Part shown: positions 7,777-53,893 of the stretch, piece by piece
Layout of the letters: every line of letters begins with the position of its first letter
How positions within the stretch are numbered: the stretch's first letter is position 1
Source: an uncultured Altererythrobacter sp.
GTDB lineage: Bacteria > Pseudomonadota > Alphaproteobacteria > Sphingomonadales > Sphingomonadaceae
DNA length: 64,000 bases
Reading direction: 5' to 3'
NCBI GenBank assembly: GCA_913055875.1
Contig: CAJXJY010000007.1
Span: 120,959-184,958, forward strand
Program-made: the position numbers and the translations under genes
The notes under the pieces: generated by a model
What the model was told of the DNA's origin: nothing
The model's input: the letters and a program-made list of their open reading frames with translations, nothing else
Database searches by the model: none

Positions 7777-7796
7777 TACGCCGCTCCTTCCCCAAA

Positions 7797-7824
7797 CCGT
7801 CATCCCAGCGAAAGCTGGGATCTC
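7797..7824. repeat. Hairpin repeat (CGTCATCCCAG...CTGGGATCTC), left inverted repeat of the GIY-YIG unit
   Basis: Exact reverse complement of 8140-8167 (28/28). Confidence 0.9.
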
Positions 7825-7849
7825 TCTCCACGCTCCCCGACGCCGGCTG

Positions 7850-8137
7850 ATGGGCGGTTGGGTGTATATCCTGACGAACAAGCCGCACGGTGTTCTCTAC
7901 ACCGGTGTGACAGCCGACCTTGCGGCTCGTATGATCCAGCACCGGGAGGGCAAGGGTTCAGCATTCTGCCGCCGCTACGGGATCAAGCGCCTCGTCCATG
8001 CCGAGCCGTTCGAGAGGATCGAGGACGCGATCGCGCGCGAGAAAGCGATCAAGGCGTGGAAGCGCGCTTGGAAGGTCGAGTTGATCGAAAAGGAAAACCC
8101 GGATTGGGACGATCTCTTCGACGTCATCCTGGGCTGA
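7850..8137 (+). CDS. GIY-YIG nuclease family protein (small, URI-domain only)
   Basis: WVYILTNKPHGVLYTGVT...R...H motif of GIY-YIG. 95 aa. Confidence 0.85.
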   Translation: MGGWVYILTNKPHGVLYTGVTADLAARMIQHREGKGSAFCRRYGIKRLVHAEPFERIEDAIAREKAIKAWKRAWKVELIEKENPDWDDLFDVILG

Positions 8138-8918: not shown

Positions 8919-9191
8919 GTTTGTTTATCCGGCGGTGACGGGACCTGTCGCTGCTTGGCAAGCATCGATCCGCGGGATGCGGCACCGGCCCACTCCCCCG
9001 CCCGGCCCCGAGTCGTGGTCGCGTGCGGGCCAGACCTCCGTCTGGCCCTTGCTGTTCCATCCCCCGCCCCCACCCGGCCACCCCGACCATAGTAGCCTAT
9101 GGGTGGCCGGGTGGGGGCGTGGGATGGAACAGCCCCGGCGGTCAGATACTTGCCAAGCAGCGACAGGTCCCGTCACCGCCGGAAAACAAAC
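8919..9191. repeat. Nested long inverted repeat (MITE-like or structured RNA) between convergent genes
   Basis: Perfect 34-bp arms at 8929-8962 and 9149-9182, extended imperfectly to 8919 and 9191. Inner arms 9054-9083 and 9101-9130 (29/30). Extra hairpin at 9024-9046. Confidence 0.85.
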
Positions 9192-26705: not shown

Positions 26706-27718
26706 GTCTCGCCGCCCGCCTGCGCGGCGAGCATCCGTTCCAATCCCTCGACCACCAGCGCCAGCCGCCGATAGTCGAGCGTATCGGGCGTGTCGGTTGC
26801 GCGGTGGTAGTTGGGATTGCGGAAGGGGGCGGTGTCGGTGATCATGAATGCGGGGATGCCCTGCTGCGAATAACTCCAGTGGTCCGACCAGTCGATCCCC
26901 TGCACGAAGCCCGGGGCTGTCCCGCCGATCGAGGGGATGCGGGCATGTGCGCGGAATCCGTCGATCTTCTCGCGCAGGAAGGTCCGCGACGACAGGTCGC
27001 CGGCGAAGGCGACGAAATCGCCGGTGTCGGGATAGCGCAGCGAAAGCGGGAAGGGGTAGTGCTGGCTGCCGCGCGCGTCGGAAAAATAGCCGAGGCTTTC
27101 GAGTGCGATCATTCCGGCGACACGCTCCGGCTCGTCGAGCGAGCGGGCATGGACGAGGCTGCCCATCGCGTTGGTCTTGAAATGGGGCGGCTCCTCGTTG
27201 GCGTAGAACACGAGCTGCAGTTCGAGCGCGGCACGGCCGTCGAGCGGCTTCAGCGCGCGCGCCAGTTCGAGCAGCGCGGCGACCCCGCTGGCATTGTCGT
27301 CGGCGCCCGGCGCCGAACCCGCGCTGTCGTAATGCGCGCCGATCACGAGGATCGGCGCATCGGCGCGCGCAGCCCCGATCCGCACGACCAGATTGTCCGC
27401 TGGGGCGAGGACCTCCTGCCGCTGGACCGCATAACCGAGCGCTTCGAGTTCGCCCCGGAGATAGCCGAGCGTCCGCGTGACCGAGGCAATCCGCTCGAGG
27501 TTGCGCGGCGTTTCGGCGAGCGTGCGAACGTGGCTTTCGAGCCGCGCGGCGAGCTGCGGATCGCCGGGCTCGGCGGGGGGGCCGTCATAGGATTCGCCGG
27601 GCGTTGCGGTGGCCCACAGGAATGCGCCCACGGCGAGCGTGAACAGCGCGAGGACGATCGCGAGGAATACGATACGCCGCGCCTTGCCCTTGCGCTCGCT
27701 TTCCTCGTGATAGCTCAT
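26702..27718 (-). CDS. M28 family metallopeptidase
   Basis: GAHYDS...DDNASGVAALLELAR zinc-ligand motifs. N-terminal TM anchor. Confidence 0.88.
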   Translation of the reverse strand: MSYHEESERKGKARRIVFLAIVLALFTLAVGAFLWATATPGESYDGPPAEPGDPQLAARLESHVRTLAETPRNLERIASVTRTLGYLRGELEALGYAVQRQEVLAPADNLVVRIGAARADAPILVIGAHYDSAGSAPGADDNASGVAALLELARALKPLDGRAALELQLVFYANEEPPHFKTNAMGSLVHARSLDEPERVAGMIALESLGYFSDARGSQHYPFPLSLRYPDTGDFVAFAGDLSSRTFLREKIDGFRAHARIPSIGGTAPGFVQGIDWSDHWSYSQQGIPAFMITDTAPFRNPNYHRATDTPDTLDYRRLALVVEGLERMLAAQAGGET

Positions 27719-27829
27719 GCGGCAGGTCTATCCGCGCAAAGGGATCCCGTCACCCCGTAGGCGAGGACGCAATCGCGGGCGAGTAGGCGGCGGGCGGTCG
27801 GAAGGTCCGTGCCGCCCGCCGCCATGTAG

Positions 27830-28267
27830 TTACGCCGCCTGCTTGATCTCGCGCAGGGTGACGTCGAAGGTGAGATCCTCGCCGGCGAGCGGATGGTTGC
27901 CGTCGGCCTTGACCGACTGCTCGCCCACTTCGACGATGTGGAGCGTGATCGGCTGGCCGTCCTGGCCCTGCGCCTGCAATTGCATGCCGGGCTGCGGGGC
28001 CGGTTCGGGCGGCAGGTTGGAGCGCGGGATGTCGATCACCATCTCCTCGCGCCGCGGGCCGAAGGCGTTCTCGCTCTCGATCGAGACGCTCTGCTGGTCG
28101 CCGACTTCCATCCCGGTGAGCGCCTGTTCGAGCTGCGGGAAGATCTGCCCGCTGCCGAGCTGGATGTCCTGCGGCCCGGCCTCCGCGGTATTGCCGACCA
28201 CTTCGCCGTCGCCTCTGCGCAGCACGTAGTCGATGGTCACGGTGTCGCCGTTCTTGGGATTGGTCAT
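27830..28267 (-). CDS. FKBP-type peptidyl-prolyl isomerase (SlyD-like, no His tail)
   Basis: VTIDYVLR...G.GQIFPQLEQAL.GM..G......NHPLAGEDLTFDV pattern. Confidence 0.85.
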   Translation of the reverse strand: MTNPKNGDTVTIDYVLRRGDGEVVGNTAEAGPQDIQLGSGQIFPQLEQALTGMEVGDQQSVSIESENAFGPRREEMVIDIPRSNLPPEPAPQPGMQLQAQGQDGQPITLHIVEVGEQSVKADGNHPLAGEDLTFDVTLREIKQAA

Positions 28268-28551
28268 GAATGTCCTTTTGGATTTCGTGTTCGCGGCGCG
28301 GATGCACCGCCTGGGGAGCGCGCCCGCGTGTCGAGCGCTTCGCGCGCGAGTCTCGCAAGTTGGGGGGCGGTAGTCAAATGGGGCGGGGGCGAGTGTCCGG
28401 GTTGCGCCATGATGGATAACTGTGCTTCGAGTGGTTTACCCGTACCCCGTCCTTGAGCGGGTTGGCGGACTTCCGCTAATCCACTGCCGCGTCGAAAGCG
28501 CATCCAATGATAGCGCGATGAACGATCAAAAGTAGCACTGTCGGCGCTCGA

Positions 28552-29445
28552 TCAGGTTGCTAGAAACGCCACTAAGATCGTTAACACTAGTCCGCAGACG
28601 GCAAAAAAGAATTTCTTTCTCTCGCGATGCCGAGCTCCGACGCCAAATTCGAATACAACAGAAGGAAAAACCCTTAGATACATTCTTGTAATCAAGAATC
28701 CTGCAAATATTAAAGAAACAAGAAATACAAGAAAAGTGCTAAAATACCCCAACGCACCAAGCCTAGAGCTTGAAAAAGCACCTACGGAAAACGCACCCAC
28801 GAAAGCAGAGACGGTACCTATCGTTAAAAGAGCTGCCTTAAAATATGCGTGATGCAAAAAAGAAAAATCTGGCGCACTGTTTCTCAGCAAATTTAAAACT
28901 GGGTTGGATATTTGACGTACATTCTCCAGAGTGCCAGTGGCCCGAAAATCTGCAGTTTCATCACCCCAGTTTTTTACATGTAGCGAAATAAAACCAGAGG
29001 AATATTGTCCAGCGCGAGCAGTAACAGAAATTGGCTCAGAATGTTCTGATCTAAGAGCTTTCACGGCTTTTCGAATATCATGGAAATCTTCCGTAAGGTC
29101 ATTTTTCCAAGCTATAGAATACACAGGTGTGCAGCTTTTAACTGCCATCTCATAGAGGCTCTTGTTATTAATGTTAGTGGGAATCTTGCCTTTCCTTAAG
29201 TAAGTCTTGAGTCTCTTGGCGTTAACGTCGTAACTAACTGCCACATCCTCGCAGAGCACGCCCATTGTTTCACGCATCACGTCGTCAAGCCTCAGGAGGA
29301 AGCCTTCATCGACCAAAATCGGCTGACTAATTGATCTCTCAATGCTCCCCATAGTAATCCATGCTGCTCGTCCTATCTGCCCCGCCCATGTTTCGTCCAC
29401 ACGGCGAAGTGTCAACAATGTCATGGGGCCGGGGATCTGCGGCAC
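28552..29445 (-). CDS. Orphan low-GC membrane protein (soluble N-terminal domain plus three C-terminal TM helices)
   Basis: A hand-counted 60-nt sample (28561-28620) has 24 G+C, against a GC-rich background. A/T-rich third codon positions. Start uncertain: GTG 29445, ATG 29424 or ATG 29352. Confidence 0.6.
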   Translation of the reverse strand: MPQIPGPMTLLTLRRVDETWAGQIGRAAWITMGSIERSISQPILVDEGFLLRLDDVMRETMGVLCEDVAVSYDVNAKRLKTYLRKGKIPTNINNKSLYEMAVKSCTPVYSIAWKNDLTEDFHDIRKAVKALRSEHSEPISVTARAGQYSSGFISLHVKNWGDETADFRATGTLENVRQISNPVLNLLRNSAPDFSFLHHAYFKAALLTIGTVSAFVGAFSVGAFSSSRLGALGYFSTFLVFLVSLIFAGFLITRMYLRVFPSVVFEFGVGARHRERKKFFFAVCGLVLTILVAFLAT

Positions 29446-29463
29446 CCATAACGACGAACTCGG

Positions 29464-31143
<1,680 letters not shown>

Positions 31144-31256
31144 CGTGCGTGTCCTTCGGGTATCTGGCTGAACGGGATTTCGTGCGCGCAGATAGGGGGT
31201 GGGGGCGTTTCGGGCAAGCTGGACTTGGGGGCGGAGGCGCACTAGCTGACTGCGCC

Positions 31257-52061: not shown

Positions 52062-53893
52062 CCTTCGACCAGTTCGGCCAGTTCGAGCCAGCGCTCTTCG
52101 GCGGCGTGTTTCTCAGCGCGGGCGTTTTCGAGGCCCTTGGTGATGGTGGCGAATTTCTGCGGGTCGGCGGTGTAGAGGTCGGGATCGGCGAGGATCGCCT
52201 CGCCCCTGGTTATGGCGCCTTCCAGCTCCTCGATCCGCGCGGGCAGCAATTCGTAGTCGCGCTGGTCCTTGTAGGAGAGCTTCTTGCTCGCCCTCTCCGT
52301 TGCGGGAGCAGGCTCGGGGGTGGGGGAGGACTTGTGCGCTTTGCCGGACCCGCTCCCGGTCCCTCCCGCACGCGGGAGGGGAGACTTGCGCTCGCGCCGT
52401 TTCGCCTCCCAGTCCTCGTAGCCGCCCGCGACCACATCCACCGTGCCAGAGCCGTCGAGGCCGAGCGTCAACGTCACGGTCTTGTCGAGAAAGTCGCGGT
52501 CGTGGCTGACGATCAGCACCGTTCCCTCGTAATCGGCGATCACCTCCTGCAGCAGGTCGAGCGTTTCGAGGTCGAGGTCGTTGGTCGGCTCGTCGAGCAC
52601 GAGGAGGTTCGACTTGCGGGCGAATTCGCGCGCCAGCAGCAGCCGCGAACGCTCGCCGCCCGACATGATGCCGACCCTGGTGTCGACCACTTTGGGATCG
52701 AACAGGAACTCCTTGAGATAGCCTTGCACGTGCTTGCGCGTGCCGCGCACGTCGATCCAGTCGCCGCCCTCGGCGAGCACTTGCCGCACGGTCACGTCGC
52801 CTTCGAGCAGGCTGCGCTGCTGGTCGATCATAACGCCCGTAAGCTTCTTCGAGATCTCGACCGAGCCGGTGTCGGGTGCGAGCTCGCCGGTGAGGAGCTT
52901 GAGAAGCGTCGTCTTGCCCGCGCCGTTGGCGCCGACCACACCGATCCGGTCGCCGCGCTGGATGCGCAGCGTGAAATCGCGGATGATCTTGCGCTCGCCA
53001 TAGGATTTGGAGACATTCTCGGCGACGATCACCGACTTGGACTTGAACTCCTCCTCGGTCGCCAGCCCCAACTTCGCCGTGCCCTTGGGTGCGATCATCG
53101 CGGCGCGCTGGGCGCGCATCTCCCACAGCTTCTCGAGCCGGCCCTGGTTGCGCTTGCGCCGCGCGGTCACCCCGCGCTCGAGCCAGTGCGCCTCGAGTTT
53201 CAGCTTGGCGTCGAGCTTCTCCGCCGCACGCGCCTCCTCGGCATAGACCTGCTCTTCCCACGCCTCGTAGCCGCCGAAGCCGACCTCCTTGCGCCGCAGG
53301 ATGCCGCGGTCGAGCCAGATCGTTGCTCGAGTCAGCCGCTTGAGGAAGGTCCGGTCGTGGCTGATGACGACGAAGGCGCCCTTGTAGCGGTCGAGCCAGC
53401 CCTCGAGCCATTCGATCGCCGACAGGTCGAGGTGGTTGGTCGGCTCGTCCATCAGCAGCAGGTCGGGATCCTGCGCCAGCGCCTTGGCGATCGCCGCGCG
53501 CCGCTTCTCGCCGCCGCTGGCGCCCTTCGTCGGTGTGGCCATGTCGATGCCGAGCTGGCCCGCAATCGCCTCGACCTCATGCTCGGCGGGGGCGTGTTCG
53601 CCCCCCAGCGCGAAGTCCATCAGCGTGGCGAAGGGGGAGAAATCGGGTTCCTGTTCGAGCACCACTATCCGCGTGCCGGGCTTGACCTTGCGCAGGCCCT
53701 TGTCGGCCTCGATCCGGTCGTCGATCAGGCGGAACAGCGTGGTCTTGCCGACGCCGTTGCGACCGATCAGCGCGAGCCGGTCGCGCGGCCGGATGTGGAG
53801 GTCGAGACCATCCTTGTCCGGCCCGCCGAACAGCCATTTGCCGCCCTGTTGCAGCGAGACGCCTTCGAGGCTGAGGATCGGGGGTTGCGCCAT
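52058..53893 (-). CDS. uup: ABC-F family ATPase (Uup-like)
   Basis: Two ABC cassettes and a C-terminal coiled-coil tail (LSYKDQRDYELLPARIEELE). Confidence 0.8.
   Translation of the reverse strand: MAQPPILSLEGVSLQQGGKWLFGGPDKDGLDLHIRPRDRLALIGRNGVGKTTLFRLIDDRIEADKGLRKVKPGTRIVVLEQEPDFSPFATLMDFALGGEHAPAEHEVEAIAGQLGIDMATPTKGASGGEKRRAAIAKALAQDPDLLLMDEPTNHLDLSAIEWLEGWLDRYKGAFVVISHDRTFLKRLTRATIWLDRGILRRKEVGFGGYEAWEEQVYAEEARAAEKLDAKLKLEAHWLERGVTARRKRNQGRLEKLWEMRAQRAAMIAPKGTAKLGLATEEEFKSKSVIVAENVSKSYGERKIIRDFTLRIQRGDRIGVVGANGAGKTTLLKLLTGELAPDTGSVEISKKLTGVMIDQQRSLLEGDVTVRQVLAEGGDWIDVRGTRKHVQGYLKEFLFDPKVVDTRVGIMSGGERSRLLLAREFARKSNLLVLDEPTNDLDLETLDLLQEVIADYEGTVLIVSHDRDFLDKTVTLTLGLDGSGTVDVVAGGYEDWEAKRRERKSPLPRAGGTGSGSGKAHKSSPTPEPAPATERASKKLSYKDQRDYELLPARIEELEGAITRGEAILADPDLYTADPQKFATITKGLENARAEKHAAEERWLELAELVEG

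What the first reader, a model, noticed from the sequence alone, without database searches (positions are those of the whole stretch)
28500..29463. Single-gene low-GC island encoding an orphan membrane protein between an FKBP gene and ettA
Base composition drops sharply here. A hand-counted 60-nt sample (28561-28620) has 24 G+C, while flanking genes are strongly GC-rich. Codon third positions are A/T-rich, so the gene looks horizontally acquired.

The 297-aa product has a roughly 200-aa soluble N-terminal domain with no motif I recognise. Three C-terminal TM helices follow: AALLTIGTVSAFVGAFSVGAF, LGALGYFSTFLVFLVSLIFAGFLI and FFFAVCGLVLTILVAFLAT.

The gene fills the gap so tightly that only 18 nt separate its longest start from the ettA stop. 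No mobility gene or clear target duplication is visible.

The sensor-plus-membrane-effector architecture and island context are typical of single-gene abortive-infection or defence proteins. That assignment is pure inference.
Basis: partly seen in the sequence, partly recalled or inferred. Interest (0 to 1): 0.6.

Follow-up and report, generated by a model that had tools for sequence, protein, structure and literature searches.

The report
Foreign one-gene islet, unknown membrane protein
A 1.1-kb piece of AT-rich foreign DNA between two housekeeping genes of a sphingomonad carries one intact gene for a very rare, undescribed kind of membrane protein; its relatives are always such compositional islets, often in mobile islands, so it may be an anti-phage or other conflict gene, but this was not tested.

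Summary
GC falls to 0.43 (GC3 0.40) over window 28552-29352, against 0.66 genome-wide and GC3 0.84-0.92 in neighbouring genes. This is the second-deepest real trough in the 3.3-Mb genome.

Two details need correcting. The gene starts at the ATG at 29352, giving 266 aa rather than 297, and lies 111 nt from ettA rather than 18. It is also not an orphan: exhaustive HMMER found 56 other cluster representatives. No Pfam, NCBIfam, PHROGs, PADLOC, PDB or BFVD match exists, although the AlphaFold model is very confident (pLDDT 96).

Horizontal acquisition is well supported:
- The ettA-FKBP spacer is empty (153-246 nt) in several relatives and holds unrelated cargo in others, including a low-GC DUF2971 gene.
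- 0 of 400 other genomes of the order carry the family.
- In 12 of 12 independent loci the family gene is a GC trough. Five lie beside recombinases or a transposase.
- One lone copy is bracketed by a perfect 53-nt tRNA-Cys repeat and has no integrase.

The defence or abortive-infection reading remains circumstantial.

The parts
28552..29352 (-). Coding sequence of the 266-aa family protein (ATG 29352-29350, stop TGA 28554-28552); GC 0.429, GC3 0.397
   Evidence: ORF. The start is set by the gene call (P0001, 266 aa) and by all homolog alignments, which begin at residue 32-33 of the long ORF. Composition and shuffles.
28858..29352 (-). Residues 1-165: cytoplasmic alpha/beta domain. It has a six-stranded sheet plus helices and an acidic HTH-like helix pair at 33-55. 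Conserved residues are P11, V14, W82, N84, L100, E103, P107, G115 and P161.
   Evidence: AlphaFold models at pLDDT 96.1 and 95.7; alignment A1; no fold match in PDB or BFVD.
28669..28848 (-). Residues 169-228: TM1-TM2 helical hairpin with a very short, uncharged periplasmic turn
28642..28668 (-). Residues 229-237: the conserved F-P-x-V-V-F-x-F-G loop, followed by a basic stretch (RHRERKK); predicted cytoplasmic (family mean net charge +3.2). It forms a short strand (232-234) that appears together with strand 12-14 only in the full-length model.
28558..28644 (-). Residues 237-265: TM3; C-terminus outside
29353..29463 (-). 5' spacer of 111 nt (GC 0.59), specific to this genome. It holds the spurious 31-codon N-terminal extension of the longest ORF. 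No sigma-70-like promoter was detected.
28379..28551 (-). 3' spacer of 173 nt (GC 0.60), specific to this genome, with a weak terminator-like hairpin at 28548-28534 just after the stop codon
   Evidence: no Rfam match
29423..29434 (.). Left copy of a 12-nt imperfect direct repeat (ATGGGGCCGGGG on the + strand), 29 nt from the ettA stop
   Evidence: (family D5). At chance level on its own.
28378..28389 (.). Right copy of the repeat (ATGGGGCGGGGG), abutting the point where homology to relatives resumes. Removing the islet plus one copy would leave a 41-nt spacer, close to the 38 nt I count in the aligned empty site L038.
28268..28378 (-). Conserved promoter and leader of the FKBP gene (starts at a TTTGAC box), alignable in all relatives; this is the right-hand limit of the variable site
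27830..28267 (-). FKBP-type (SlyD-like) peptidyl-prolyl isomerase gene, downstream neighbour
   Evidence: Pfam FKBP_C, E 1.5e-14
29464..31143 (-). ettA-type ABC-F ATPase gene (559 aa), upstream neighbour; its stop codon is the left-hand limit of the variable site
   Evidence: Pfam ABC_tran x2 plus ABC_tran_Xtn; 64-96% identical in 40 of 41 relatives

Best explanation
Shown. Window 28379-29463 is a horizontally acquired one-gene islet. It lies in a hypervariable intergenic site between the ettA stop codon and the promoter of the FKBP gene, in an erythrobacter-type sphingomonad.

Its single intact gene encodes a 266-aa inner-membrane protein of a very rare family that no library describes. The protein has an acidic cytoplasmic alpha/beta domain of about 165 aa with no detectable structural relative. 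After that come a TM1-TM2 hairpin, a conserved basic cytoplasmic loop (F-P-x-x-x-F-x-F-G) and TM3, with the C-terminus outside.

Family members are accessory cargo. They occur in tRNA-targeting integrase islands, beside serine recombinases or a transposase, and as lone AT-rich one-gene islets. One lone copy still has perfect tRNA-derived att repeats but no integrase, so it resembles a cis-mobilizable element.

Inferred. The protein has no conserved catalytic-type residues; E103 is the only conserved polar one. It has no conserved partner gene. It is patchily distributed and turns over fast. I therefore think it most likely acts alone as a conflict effector of the abortive-infection or exclusion type. 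In this model the cytoplasmic domain senses an invader-derived cue. It is coupled to the membrane part through pairing of strand 12-14 with the F-P loop strand. That coupling would change the packing of the three TM helices so that membrane integrity or membrane potential is lost.

The AT-rich gene is probably kept silent or low by the host's MucR-type silencer. I put the acquisition and cargo part at about 0.9 and the defence-type mechanism at about 0.35.
For: Composition and ORF.

Start codon and family: 56 other representatives, all full-length alignments, best 41% identity; conserved motifs.

Fold: pLDDT 96.1, pTM 0.89; domain alone pLDDT 95.7. No PDB or BFVD match: E >= 0.04, TM <= 0.23. 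No Pfam, NCBIfam, PHROGs, PADLOC or PDB-sequence hit for 40 members.

Hotspot: the ettA-to-FKBP gap is 153-246 nt in L036, L037, L038, L111 and L117-L119. Elsewhere it is filled with MASE1 sensors, a beta-lactamase-like gene, an M28 peptidase or an EEP nuclease-like gene. In Aurantiacibacter gilvus it holds a low-GC DUF2971 gene, GC 0.50 vs 0.64. DUF2971 includes the validated single-gene Abi Aristaios (PMC11381338).

Rarity: 0 of 400 other genomes in the order and 2 of 400 in the class; 0 of 60 relatives.

Mobility:
- L024/L025: integrase, HTH_17, AAA_25, then the homolog, ending at tRNA-Ser.
- L026: tRNA-Lys, integrase, resolvase, homolog, serine recombinase.
- L027: integrase fragment.
- L029: resolvase, homolog, a methyl-directed restriction-enzyme-like gene, then a NACHT gene.
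- L196: Y1 transposase.

- L028: perfect 53-nt repeat of the tRNA-Cys 3' end brackets a 1,192-bp unit holding only the family gene.

The family gene is a GC trough in 12 of 12 loci, mean -0.18.

Topology: the F-P loop has net charge +3.2 and the TM1-TM2 turn is neutral. Strands 12-14 and 232-234 appear only in the full-length model (vs 86).

The host has a MucR/Ros gene, 172 bits. MucR is proposed as a silencer of AT-rich DNA (PMC7710501).
Against: There is no direct evidence of any function. No PADLOC model matches. Only 1 of 12 contexts has recognisable defence neighbours. Seven contexts are plain housekeeping surroundings.

No relatives were found in 50,697 phage records, 72,556 plasmid records or IMG/VR.

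In the window itself there is no tRNA, no integrase and only a chance-level 12-nt repeat, so how it inserted here is unknown.

No promoter-like site was found, and expression could not be tested.

Small-xxx-small motifs in the TM helices are only about 1.2-1.9 times expectation.

The strand-pairing 'latch' is read from secondary-structure strings, not from coordinates.
Confidence: 0.4

Rival explanations
1. The protein is accessory cargo with a role outside genetic conflict. It could be a niche-specific membrane sensor, scaffold or stress protein. It would spread on islands only because islands carry all kinds of accessory genes.
For: Seven of 12 contexts have no defence or mobility neighbours. 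The same hotspot also holds sensors (MASE1-PAS-GGDEF), peptidases and hydrolases. The genome's other low-GC islets are mixed: a transporter, a ring-hydroxylase subunit and a methyltransferase. No defence HMM matches.
Against: The family is extremely rare and patchy: about 57 representatives among 1.84 billion, and 0 of 400 in the order. It never shows ameliorated composition (12 of 12 troughs). Both argue for fast turnover rather than stable niche adaptation. There is no conserved partner or pathway context.
Confidence: 0.25
2. It is a selfish maintenance or exclusion function of integrative elements, for example a membrane protein that blocks entry of a competing element or penalises loss of the element. 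The window copy would be what remains after the rest of an island decayed.
For: Homologs lie directly beside integrases, resolvases and large serine recombinases. An integrase fragment is adjacent in L027. L028 is a one-gene unit with intact att repeats.
Against: No conserved element backbone accompanies the gene. Within islands it is an even deeper GC trough than the island itself (L024: 0.48 vs about 0.60; L026: 0.43 vs about 0.52), so it behaves as cargo rather than as a core gene. No antitoxin-like partner is present.
Confidence: 0.15
3. It is a silent, functionless remnant in this genome: foreign DNA that has not yet decayed, is not expressed and is of no use to the host.
For: No promoter-like site and only a weak SD-like GGA upstream. 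AT-rich DNA in a host that has MucR. The metagenome copies are clonal, so they give no evidence of selection.
Against: An 801-nt open frame in 43% GC DNA is very unlikely without selection or very recent arrival (0 of 20,000 shuffles). Every conserved family residue is intact: P11, L100, E103, P107, G115, P161, F229, P230, F234 and G237.
Confidence: 0.12
4. It is a native gene whose AT-richness is maintained by selection, not foreign DNA.
For: AT-richness is a property of the whole family in every host. That could reflect selection, for example for silencing, rather than donor composition alone.
Against: The site is empty in related genera. The gene is absent from 460 relatives, and homologs sit in att-flanked and integrase-bearing islands.
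Confidence: 0.03

Closest known systems
Single-gene abortive-infection or defence proteins with a cytoplasmic domain plus TM helices, carried in variable hotspots (for example lactococcal Abi proteins; Aristaios/DUF2971, PMC11381338; hotspot cargo of P2/P4 elements, PMC9122126)
   Same: A stand-alone gene with low GC and patchy distribution, located in an integration or variation hotspot that holds a DUF2971 gene in another genus. It has a soluble domain joined to a membrane part and no conserved partner.
   Different: No sequence or fold relation to any known defence family (PADLOC, Pfam, PDB and BFVD all negative). No phenotype is known, and defence neighbours occur in only 1 of 12 contexts.
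Cis-mobilizable elements (CIMEs) and decayed tRNA-targeting genomic islands (PMC5704250, PMC6323972)
   Same: The L028 relative is a 1,192-bp unit bounded by a perfect 53-nt duplication of the tRNA-Cys 3' end and has no recombinase. Other relatives lie in integrase-bearing tRNA-Ser and tRNA-Lys islands.
   Different: The window copy is not at a tRNA and has no convincing att repeats. Known CIMEs are usually several kb; here the unit is a single gene.
Integron gene cassettes
   Same: One-gene, roughly 1-kb, AT-rich, promoter-poor units inserted between unrelated genes.
   Different: No attC-type core pair (RYYYAAC ... GTTRRRY) downstream of any of 12 family genes, and no integron integrase nearby.
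Three-TM holins, including the GTA holin of this genome (window about 43.4-43.9 kb)
   Same: Three TM helices and a small protein encoded by an isolated gene.
   Different: A 165-aa structured cytoplasmic domain precedes the TM part. No holin family matches. The GTA regulon box GGTTATTGTAGGAAA is absent near the gene.

Membership tests
Known anti-phage defence or Abi protein families (PADLOC-DB 2.0) | Significant match to a family HMM | tested here: not met
   0 hits for the window protein at E <= 10. Among 40 family members there is only one stray GajA hit at E 0.01.
Known anti-phage defence or Abi protein families | Recurrent co-location with known defence genes (defence-island enrichment) | tested here: inconclusive
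   1 of 12 contexts (L029: mREase_II-like gene at E 9e-9, plus a NACHT gene). The same chromosomal hotspot holds DUF2971 in L040. The sample is too small for statistics.
Known anti-phage defence or Abi protein families | Protection against phage, or infection-triggered toxicity | not testable with these tools
   Needs bench assays.
tRNA-targeting integrative island / CIME | Flanking direct repeats that duplicate the 3' end of the target gene (attL/attR) | tested here: inconclusive
   Window: only a 12-nt 11/12 repeat, at chance frequency (about 8 expected in 1.6 kb), though one copy lies exactly at the homology boundary. Relative L028: perfect 53-nt tRNA-Cys repeat, E 4e-26.
tRNA-targeting integrative island / CIME | Insertion next to a tRNA or tmRNA gene | tested here: not met
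   The nearest tRNAs in the window are at 36.8 kb and 44.9 kb. The criterion is met in L024, L026 and L028.
tRNA-targeting integrative island / CIME | No recombinase inside the unit (for a CIME) | tested here: met
   The 1,085-nt genome-specific segment holds only the one gene.
Integron cassette | attC site with R''/R' core pair downstream of the ORF | tested here: not met
   0 matches in 12 loci, against 0.26 expected by chance.
GTA regulon / GTA 3-TM holin of this genome | Shared promoter box upstream; holin family match | tested here: not met
   The box occurs only at window 43863 and 49847, with a 3-mismatch site at 52264. No holin Pfam hit.
Membrane-tethered HTH regulators | Recognisable DNA-binding HTH domain | tested here: not met
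   Residues 33-55 follow an HTH-like pattern, but no Pfam HTH family matches in 40 members even at E <= 10. The segment is net acidic, -0.84 on average.
Pfam DUF2157 (predicted membrane protein) | Score above the gathering threshold (32.4 bits) | tested here: not met
   11.6-11.7 bits, E about 0.2; 2 of 40 members.

The most novel reading that the evidence does not exclude
The family is a new single-gene anti-phage (abortive-infection or exclusion) system with a previously unseen cytoplasmic fold latched onto a three-helix membrane effector. Its constant AT-richness would be functional, keeping the gene under MucR/H-NS-type silencing until needed. It would travel as a minimal one-gene, att-flanked cassette mobilised in trans by integrases of tRNA islands, which would explain lone copies wedged between housekeeping genes.
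Probability: 0.2. Interest if true: 0.75.

Novelty: new variant of a known kind. Interest (0 to 1): 0.5.

Why it matters
Cargo genes of variable hotspots are the main source of newly discovered bacterial immune systems. This family is a clean candidate for three reasons. It acts alone. It has a very confident predicted structure with no known relative. Its genomic behaviour is also unusually consistent: it is always an AT-rich one-gene islet, and in one case it still has intact att sites but no integrase. Testing it could yield a new membrane-acting defence mechanism. It could also give a simple model for how single genes hitch-hike on tRNA-island integrases. The ettA-FKBP spacer is itself a usable landmark for mining accessory genes in Erythrobacteraceae. 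If the gene proves silent or unrelated to conflict, the finding reduces to an ordinary small genomic islet with an uncharacterised cargo gene.

Tried and rejected
1. Word-indexed homolog searches found only the window's own protein. With the profile they were swamped by TM words and returned 2 proteins.
Single-protein scans of IMG/VR found nothing.
3. Pfam, NCBIfam, PHROGs, PADLOC and PDB-sequence scans of 40 members gave nothing recurrent.
4. Foldseek with the whole chain and with the soluble domain alone gave no significant match. Weak CYTH-like, Hsp90-N and AdoMetDC hits at TM <= 0.23 were rejected.
5. P0048 (938 aa, four matching stretches) is a ChW-repeat / peptidase C39 protein, so that hit is spurious.
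6. GTA regulon membership: rejected, because the box is absent.
7. Integron cassette: rejected, because there is no attC.
8. Membrane-tethered HTH regulator: rejected as unlikely, because the helix is acidic and no HTH family matches.
9. Remnant of the MASE1 gene that fills this site in G018: no tblastn trace in the window.
10. Shared promoter or terminal motifs among the flanks of 12 loci: none.
11. Rfam over 27500-30000: no RNA family.
12. Polymorphism in the metagenome copies: they are 100% identical clones over up to 12.8 kb, so uninformative.
13. Glycine-zipper enrichment in the TM helices: weak.
Full report
**1. The observation**

Across window 28500-29400 the GC content of 300-nt windows drops to 0.40-0.47, against 0.62-0.72 on both sides.

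The gene has GC 0.429 and GC3 0.397. The neighbouring genes (ettA, FKBP, M28 peptidase, acyP) have GC3 0.84-0.92.

In the whole 3.31-Mb genome (GC 0.661; 800-nt windows have SD 0.035), this is the third-lowest window at 0.431, about -6.6 SD. The lowest is an N-masked stretch, so this is effectively the second-deepest real trough.

The ORF at 28552..29445 (-) exists. An open frame of this length in such AT-rich DNA is not a chance event: none of 20,000 shuffles stays open.

**2. Corrections to the observation**

- The longest ORF (297 aa, GTG at 29445) is not the gene. Public gene calls give a 266-aa product (P0001).
- All homologs align from residue 32-33 of the long ORF to their own residue 1-3.
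- The 31 extra codons have no codon-position bias (GC3 0.58).
- The start is therefore the ATG at 29352-29350. The distance to the ettA stop is 111 nt, not 18.
- The soluble part is about 165 aa, not about 200.

**3. Not an orphan, but an undescribed family**

Pfam, PADLOC and Rfam gave nothing. The word-indexed search of 5.8 billion proteins found only the protein itself.

The exhaustive HMMER scan of 1.84 billion cluster representatives found 57 proteins at E <= 1e-3, the window's own among them. Nine are at <= 1e-30 (the window's own included), and the best relatives are 41% identical. Almost all are 235-306 aa and align end to end. One hit (P0048) is a ChW-repeat protein and is spurious.

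Clusters have 1-3 members each. The only names given by sources are 'hypothetical protein', for example WP_447056391.1 of Allosphingosinicella humi and a Negativicutes MAG.

None of 40 members matches any Pfam, NCBIfam, PHROGs, PADLOC or PDB-sequence family in a recurrent way.

**4. Anatomy of the protein**

The alignment (A1) shows conserved P11, V14, D15, F18, L19, A38, W82, N84, L100, E103, P107, G115 (invariant), P161, L166, H167, then F229-P230-x-x-x-F234-x-F-G237. E103 is the only strongly conserved polar residue, which argues against an enzyme.

AlphaFold2 with this alignment gives a very confident model (pLDDT 96.1, pTM 0.89):

| Element | Residues |
|---|---|
| strands | 2-8, 12-14 |
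| helices | 16-41, 45-54, 64-74 |
| strands | 77-82, 87-90 |
| helix | 93-102 |
| strands | 107-115, 121-129, 132-140 |
| helix | 142-158 |
| TM1 | 169-198 |
| TM2 | 200-228 |
| short strand | 232-234 |
| TM3 | 237-265 |

The domain modelled alone (residues 1-165) is equally confident (pLDDT 95.7). In that model strand 12-14 disappears. My inference is that it pairs with strand 232-234 of the conserved F-P loop, forming a latch between the soluble and membrane parts.

Family-wide charge counts place the F-P loop in the cytoplasm (net +3.2). The TM1-TM2 turn is short and neutral, and there is no signal peptide. The topology is therefore N-in, C-out.

Residues 33-55 follow an HTH-like pattern, but they are acidic and match no HTH family, so DNA binding is unlikely.

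Foldseek found nothing significant in the PDB or BFVD, for the whole chain or for the domain (best E 0.04-0.08, TM <= 0.23). No AlphaFold DB library was available.

**5. The site is a hotspot of gene turnover**

The family is absent from 60 relatives searched with the protein. With the profile it is absent from 400 other genomes of the order, and only 2 of 400 in the class show distant partial matches.

The host is an erythrobacter-type sphingomonad. Its closest FKBP relatives are 79% identical (Pontixanthobacter, Qipengyuania). No same-genus genome was available.

Where ettA directly precedes the FKBP gene in relatives, the gap varies widely:

| Locus | Content of the ettA-to-FKBP gap |
|---|---|
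| L036, L037, L038, L111, L117-L119 | empty, 153-246 nt |
| L033, L115, G018 | MASE1-PAS(-GGDEF) sensor |
| L032 | beta-lactamase-like hydrolase |
| L042 | M28 peptidase |
| L123 | EEP-family protein |
| L031, L035 | small unknown genes |
| L040 (Aurantiacibacter gilvus) | single low-GC DUF2971 gene, GC 0.50 vs 0.64 |

In G004, whose ettA is 96% identical, ettA is followed directly by acyP.

DUF2971 includes Aristaios, an experimentally validated single-gene abortive-infection protein (PMC11381338).

Aligning the empty sites shows that 28268-28378 is conserved in all relatives. This is the FKBP promoter and leader, starting at a TTTGAC box. Everything from 28379 to the ettA stop (1,085 nt) is specific to this genome. 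That segment comprises the 111-nt 5' spacer, the 801-nt gene and the 173-nt 3' spacer.

A 12-nt 11/12 direct repeat (29423-29434 and 28378-28389) lies just inside the left edge and exactly at the right edge. Removing the islet plus one copy would leave a 41-nt spacer, close to the 38 nt I count in the aligned empty site L038. Repeats of this quality are expected by chance about 8 times in the region, so I treat it only as a possible junction.

**6. How the family travels**

I examined twelve independent loci.

- The gene is a GC trough in every one. The mean difference is -0.18 (range -0.06 to -0.25), and this holds even inside islands that are themselves lower in GC than the host.
- Five loci lie with recombination genes:
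  - L024/L025: integrase, HTH_17, AAA_25, then the homolog, ending at tRNA-Ser.
  - L026: tRNA-Lys, integrase, then (after several genes) resolvase, homolog, large serine recombinase.
  - L027: an integrase fragment.
  - L029: resolvase, homolog, a DUF6998 gene matching methyl-directed restriction enzymes, then a NACHT gene.
  - L196: a Y1 transposase.
- Seven are lone genes between housekeeping genes:
  - the window itself;
  - L028;
  - L030, between rpsA and cmk-aroA;
  - L194, after guaA;
  - L195, after an aconitase gene;
  - L197 and L198.
- In L028 the lone gene is bracketed by a perfect 53-nt direct repeat. This repeat is the 3' part of tRNA-Cys(GCA) (tRNA at 7795-7868; repeats at 7822-7874 and 9014-9066). 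It defines a 1,192-bp integrated unit with no integrase. That is the signature of a cis-mobilizable element (concept: PMC5704250, PMC6323972).
- No attC-type sites follow any of the 12 genes.
- No shared flank motif exists.
- No relatives were found in phage, plasmid or IMG/VR collections.

**7. What it most likely does**

Shown: this is foreign, mobile-pool cargo encoding a real, structured inner-membrane protein of a new family.

Inferred: a stand-alone conflict effector. The reasons are listed here.
- It has no catalytic signature and no partner gene.
- It is extremely rare and patchy, and its composition is never ameliorated, which indicates fast gain and loss.
- It occupies a hotspot that elsewhere holds a member of a validated Abi family.
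- One context has restriction-like and NACHT genes.

The proposed mechanism is that the cytoplasmic domain senses a cue and, through the 12-14 / F-P-loop latch, re-packs the TM helices so that the membrane is compromised.

The host encodes MucR/Ros, which is proposed as a silencer of AT-rich foreign DNA in Alphaproteobacteria (PMC7710501). The gene may therefore be kept low or silent. No sigma-70-like promoter was detected.

All of this mechanism is untested. I rate it about 0.35, against about 0.9 for the acquisition and cargo part.

The rival explanations are:
- a non-conflict accessory membrane protein;
- an element-maintenance or exclusion function;
- a silent remnant;
- a native gene kept AT-rich by selection (contradicted by the presence/absence data).

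**8. Limits**

- The four metagenome copies are identical clones of the window over up to 12.8 kb, so there is no population signal.
- There is no same-genus comparison and no AlphaFold DB search.
- The latch is inferred from secondary-structure strings rather than from coordinates.

**9. Verdict**

The horizontal-transfer reading is well supported and is now placed in a defined hotspot. The protein belongs to a rare, undescribed family with a confident but unmatched fold and a striking, consistent 'AT-rich one-gene islet' behaviour. The defence reading is plausible but only circumstantial. It is a good candidate for a simple bench test and of moderate interest.

Noticed in passing
L028:7795-9066 (ENA ERZ1759591, forest-soil contig): A 1,192-bp unit holding only a family homolog is bracketed by a perfect 53-nt duplication of the 3' end of tRNA-Cys(GCA) and has no integrase. 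It is a minimal one-gene, att-flanked element.
   Followed up: yes
L040:2961-3752 (Aurantiacibacter gilvus DGU6), same ettA-FKBP site: A different low-GC single gene (263 aa, DUF2971, GC 0.50 vs 0.64) fills the same intergenic site and converges on the ettA stop. The spacer between ettA and the FKBP promoter is a family-wide hotspot, with at least 8 different cargos.
   Followed up: partly
Genome contig C9:79361-80422 (outside the window): Another single-gene low-GC islet (GC 0.46) encodes a 353-aa HATPase_c protein that matches the PADLOC candidate defence family PDC-M43B (E 3e-15).
   Followed up: partly
Genome contigs C12:23502-25439, C3:115529-116938, C10:69255-69944, C9:17083-17829: Further one-gene GC troughs: a 645-aa trypsin-like peptidase fusion, a 469-aa and a 248-aa protein with no credible family match, and a methyltransferase. 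The genome has about 24 troughs with 800-nt GC <= 0.52.
   Followed up: partly
L029:1668-5729 (Logan SRR25685066 contig): A family homolog sits in a compact block: resolvase, homolog, a DUF6998 gene resembling methyl-directed restriction enzymes, then a 625-aa NACHT protein. This looks like a small defence islet.
   Followed up: partly
window 27830-28267 and relatives: The FKBP (SlyD-like) gene is itself patchy, present in only 13 of 41 family/order genomes at E <= 1e-10. The M28 peptidase that follows it here lies between ettA and the FKBP gene in Qipengyuania vesicularis (L042). The whole region downstream of ettA is rearranged between genera.
   Followed up: partly
window 29464-31242: The longest ettA ORF (592 aa from GTG 31242) carries a 33-codon extension. 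Homologs and gene calls support 559 aa from the ATG at 31143.
   Followed up: no
L026:3300-3779 and the related 27.9-kb JGI contig (3300071358, no DNA fetched): The tRNA-Lys island that carries a family homolog also carries its own Ros/MucR-type genes: one in L026 and two on the longer related contig. An island-borne silencer next to AT-rich cargo may be relevant to how such genes are kept quiet.
   Followed up: no
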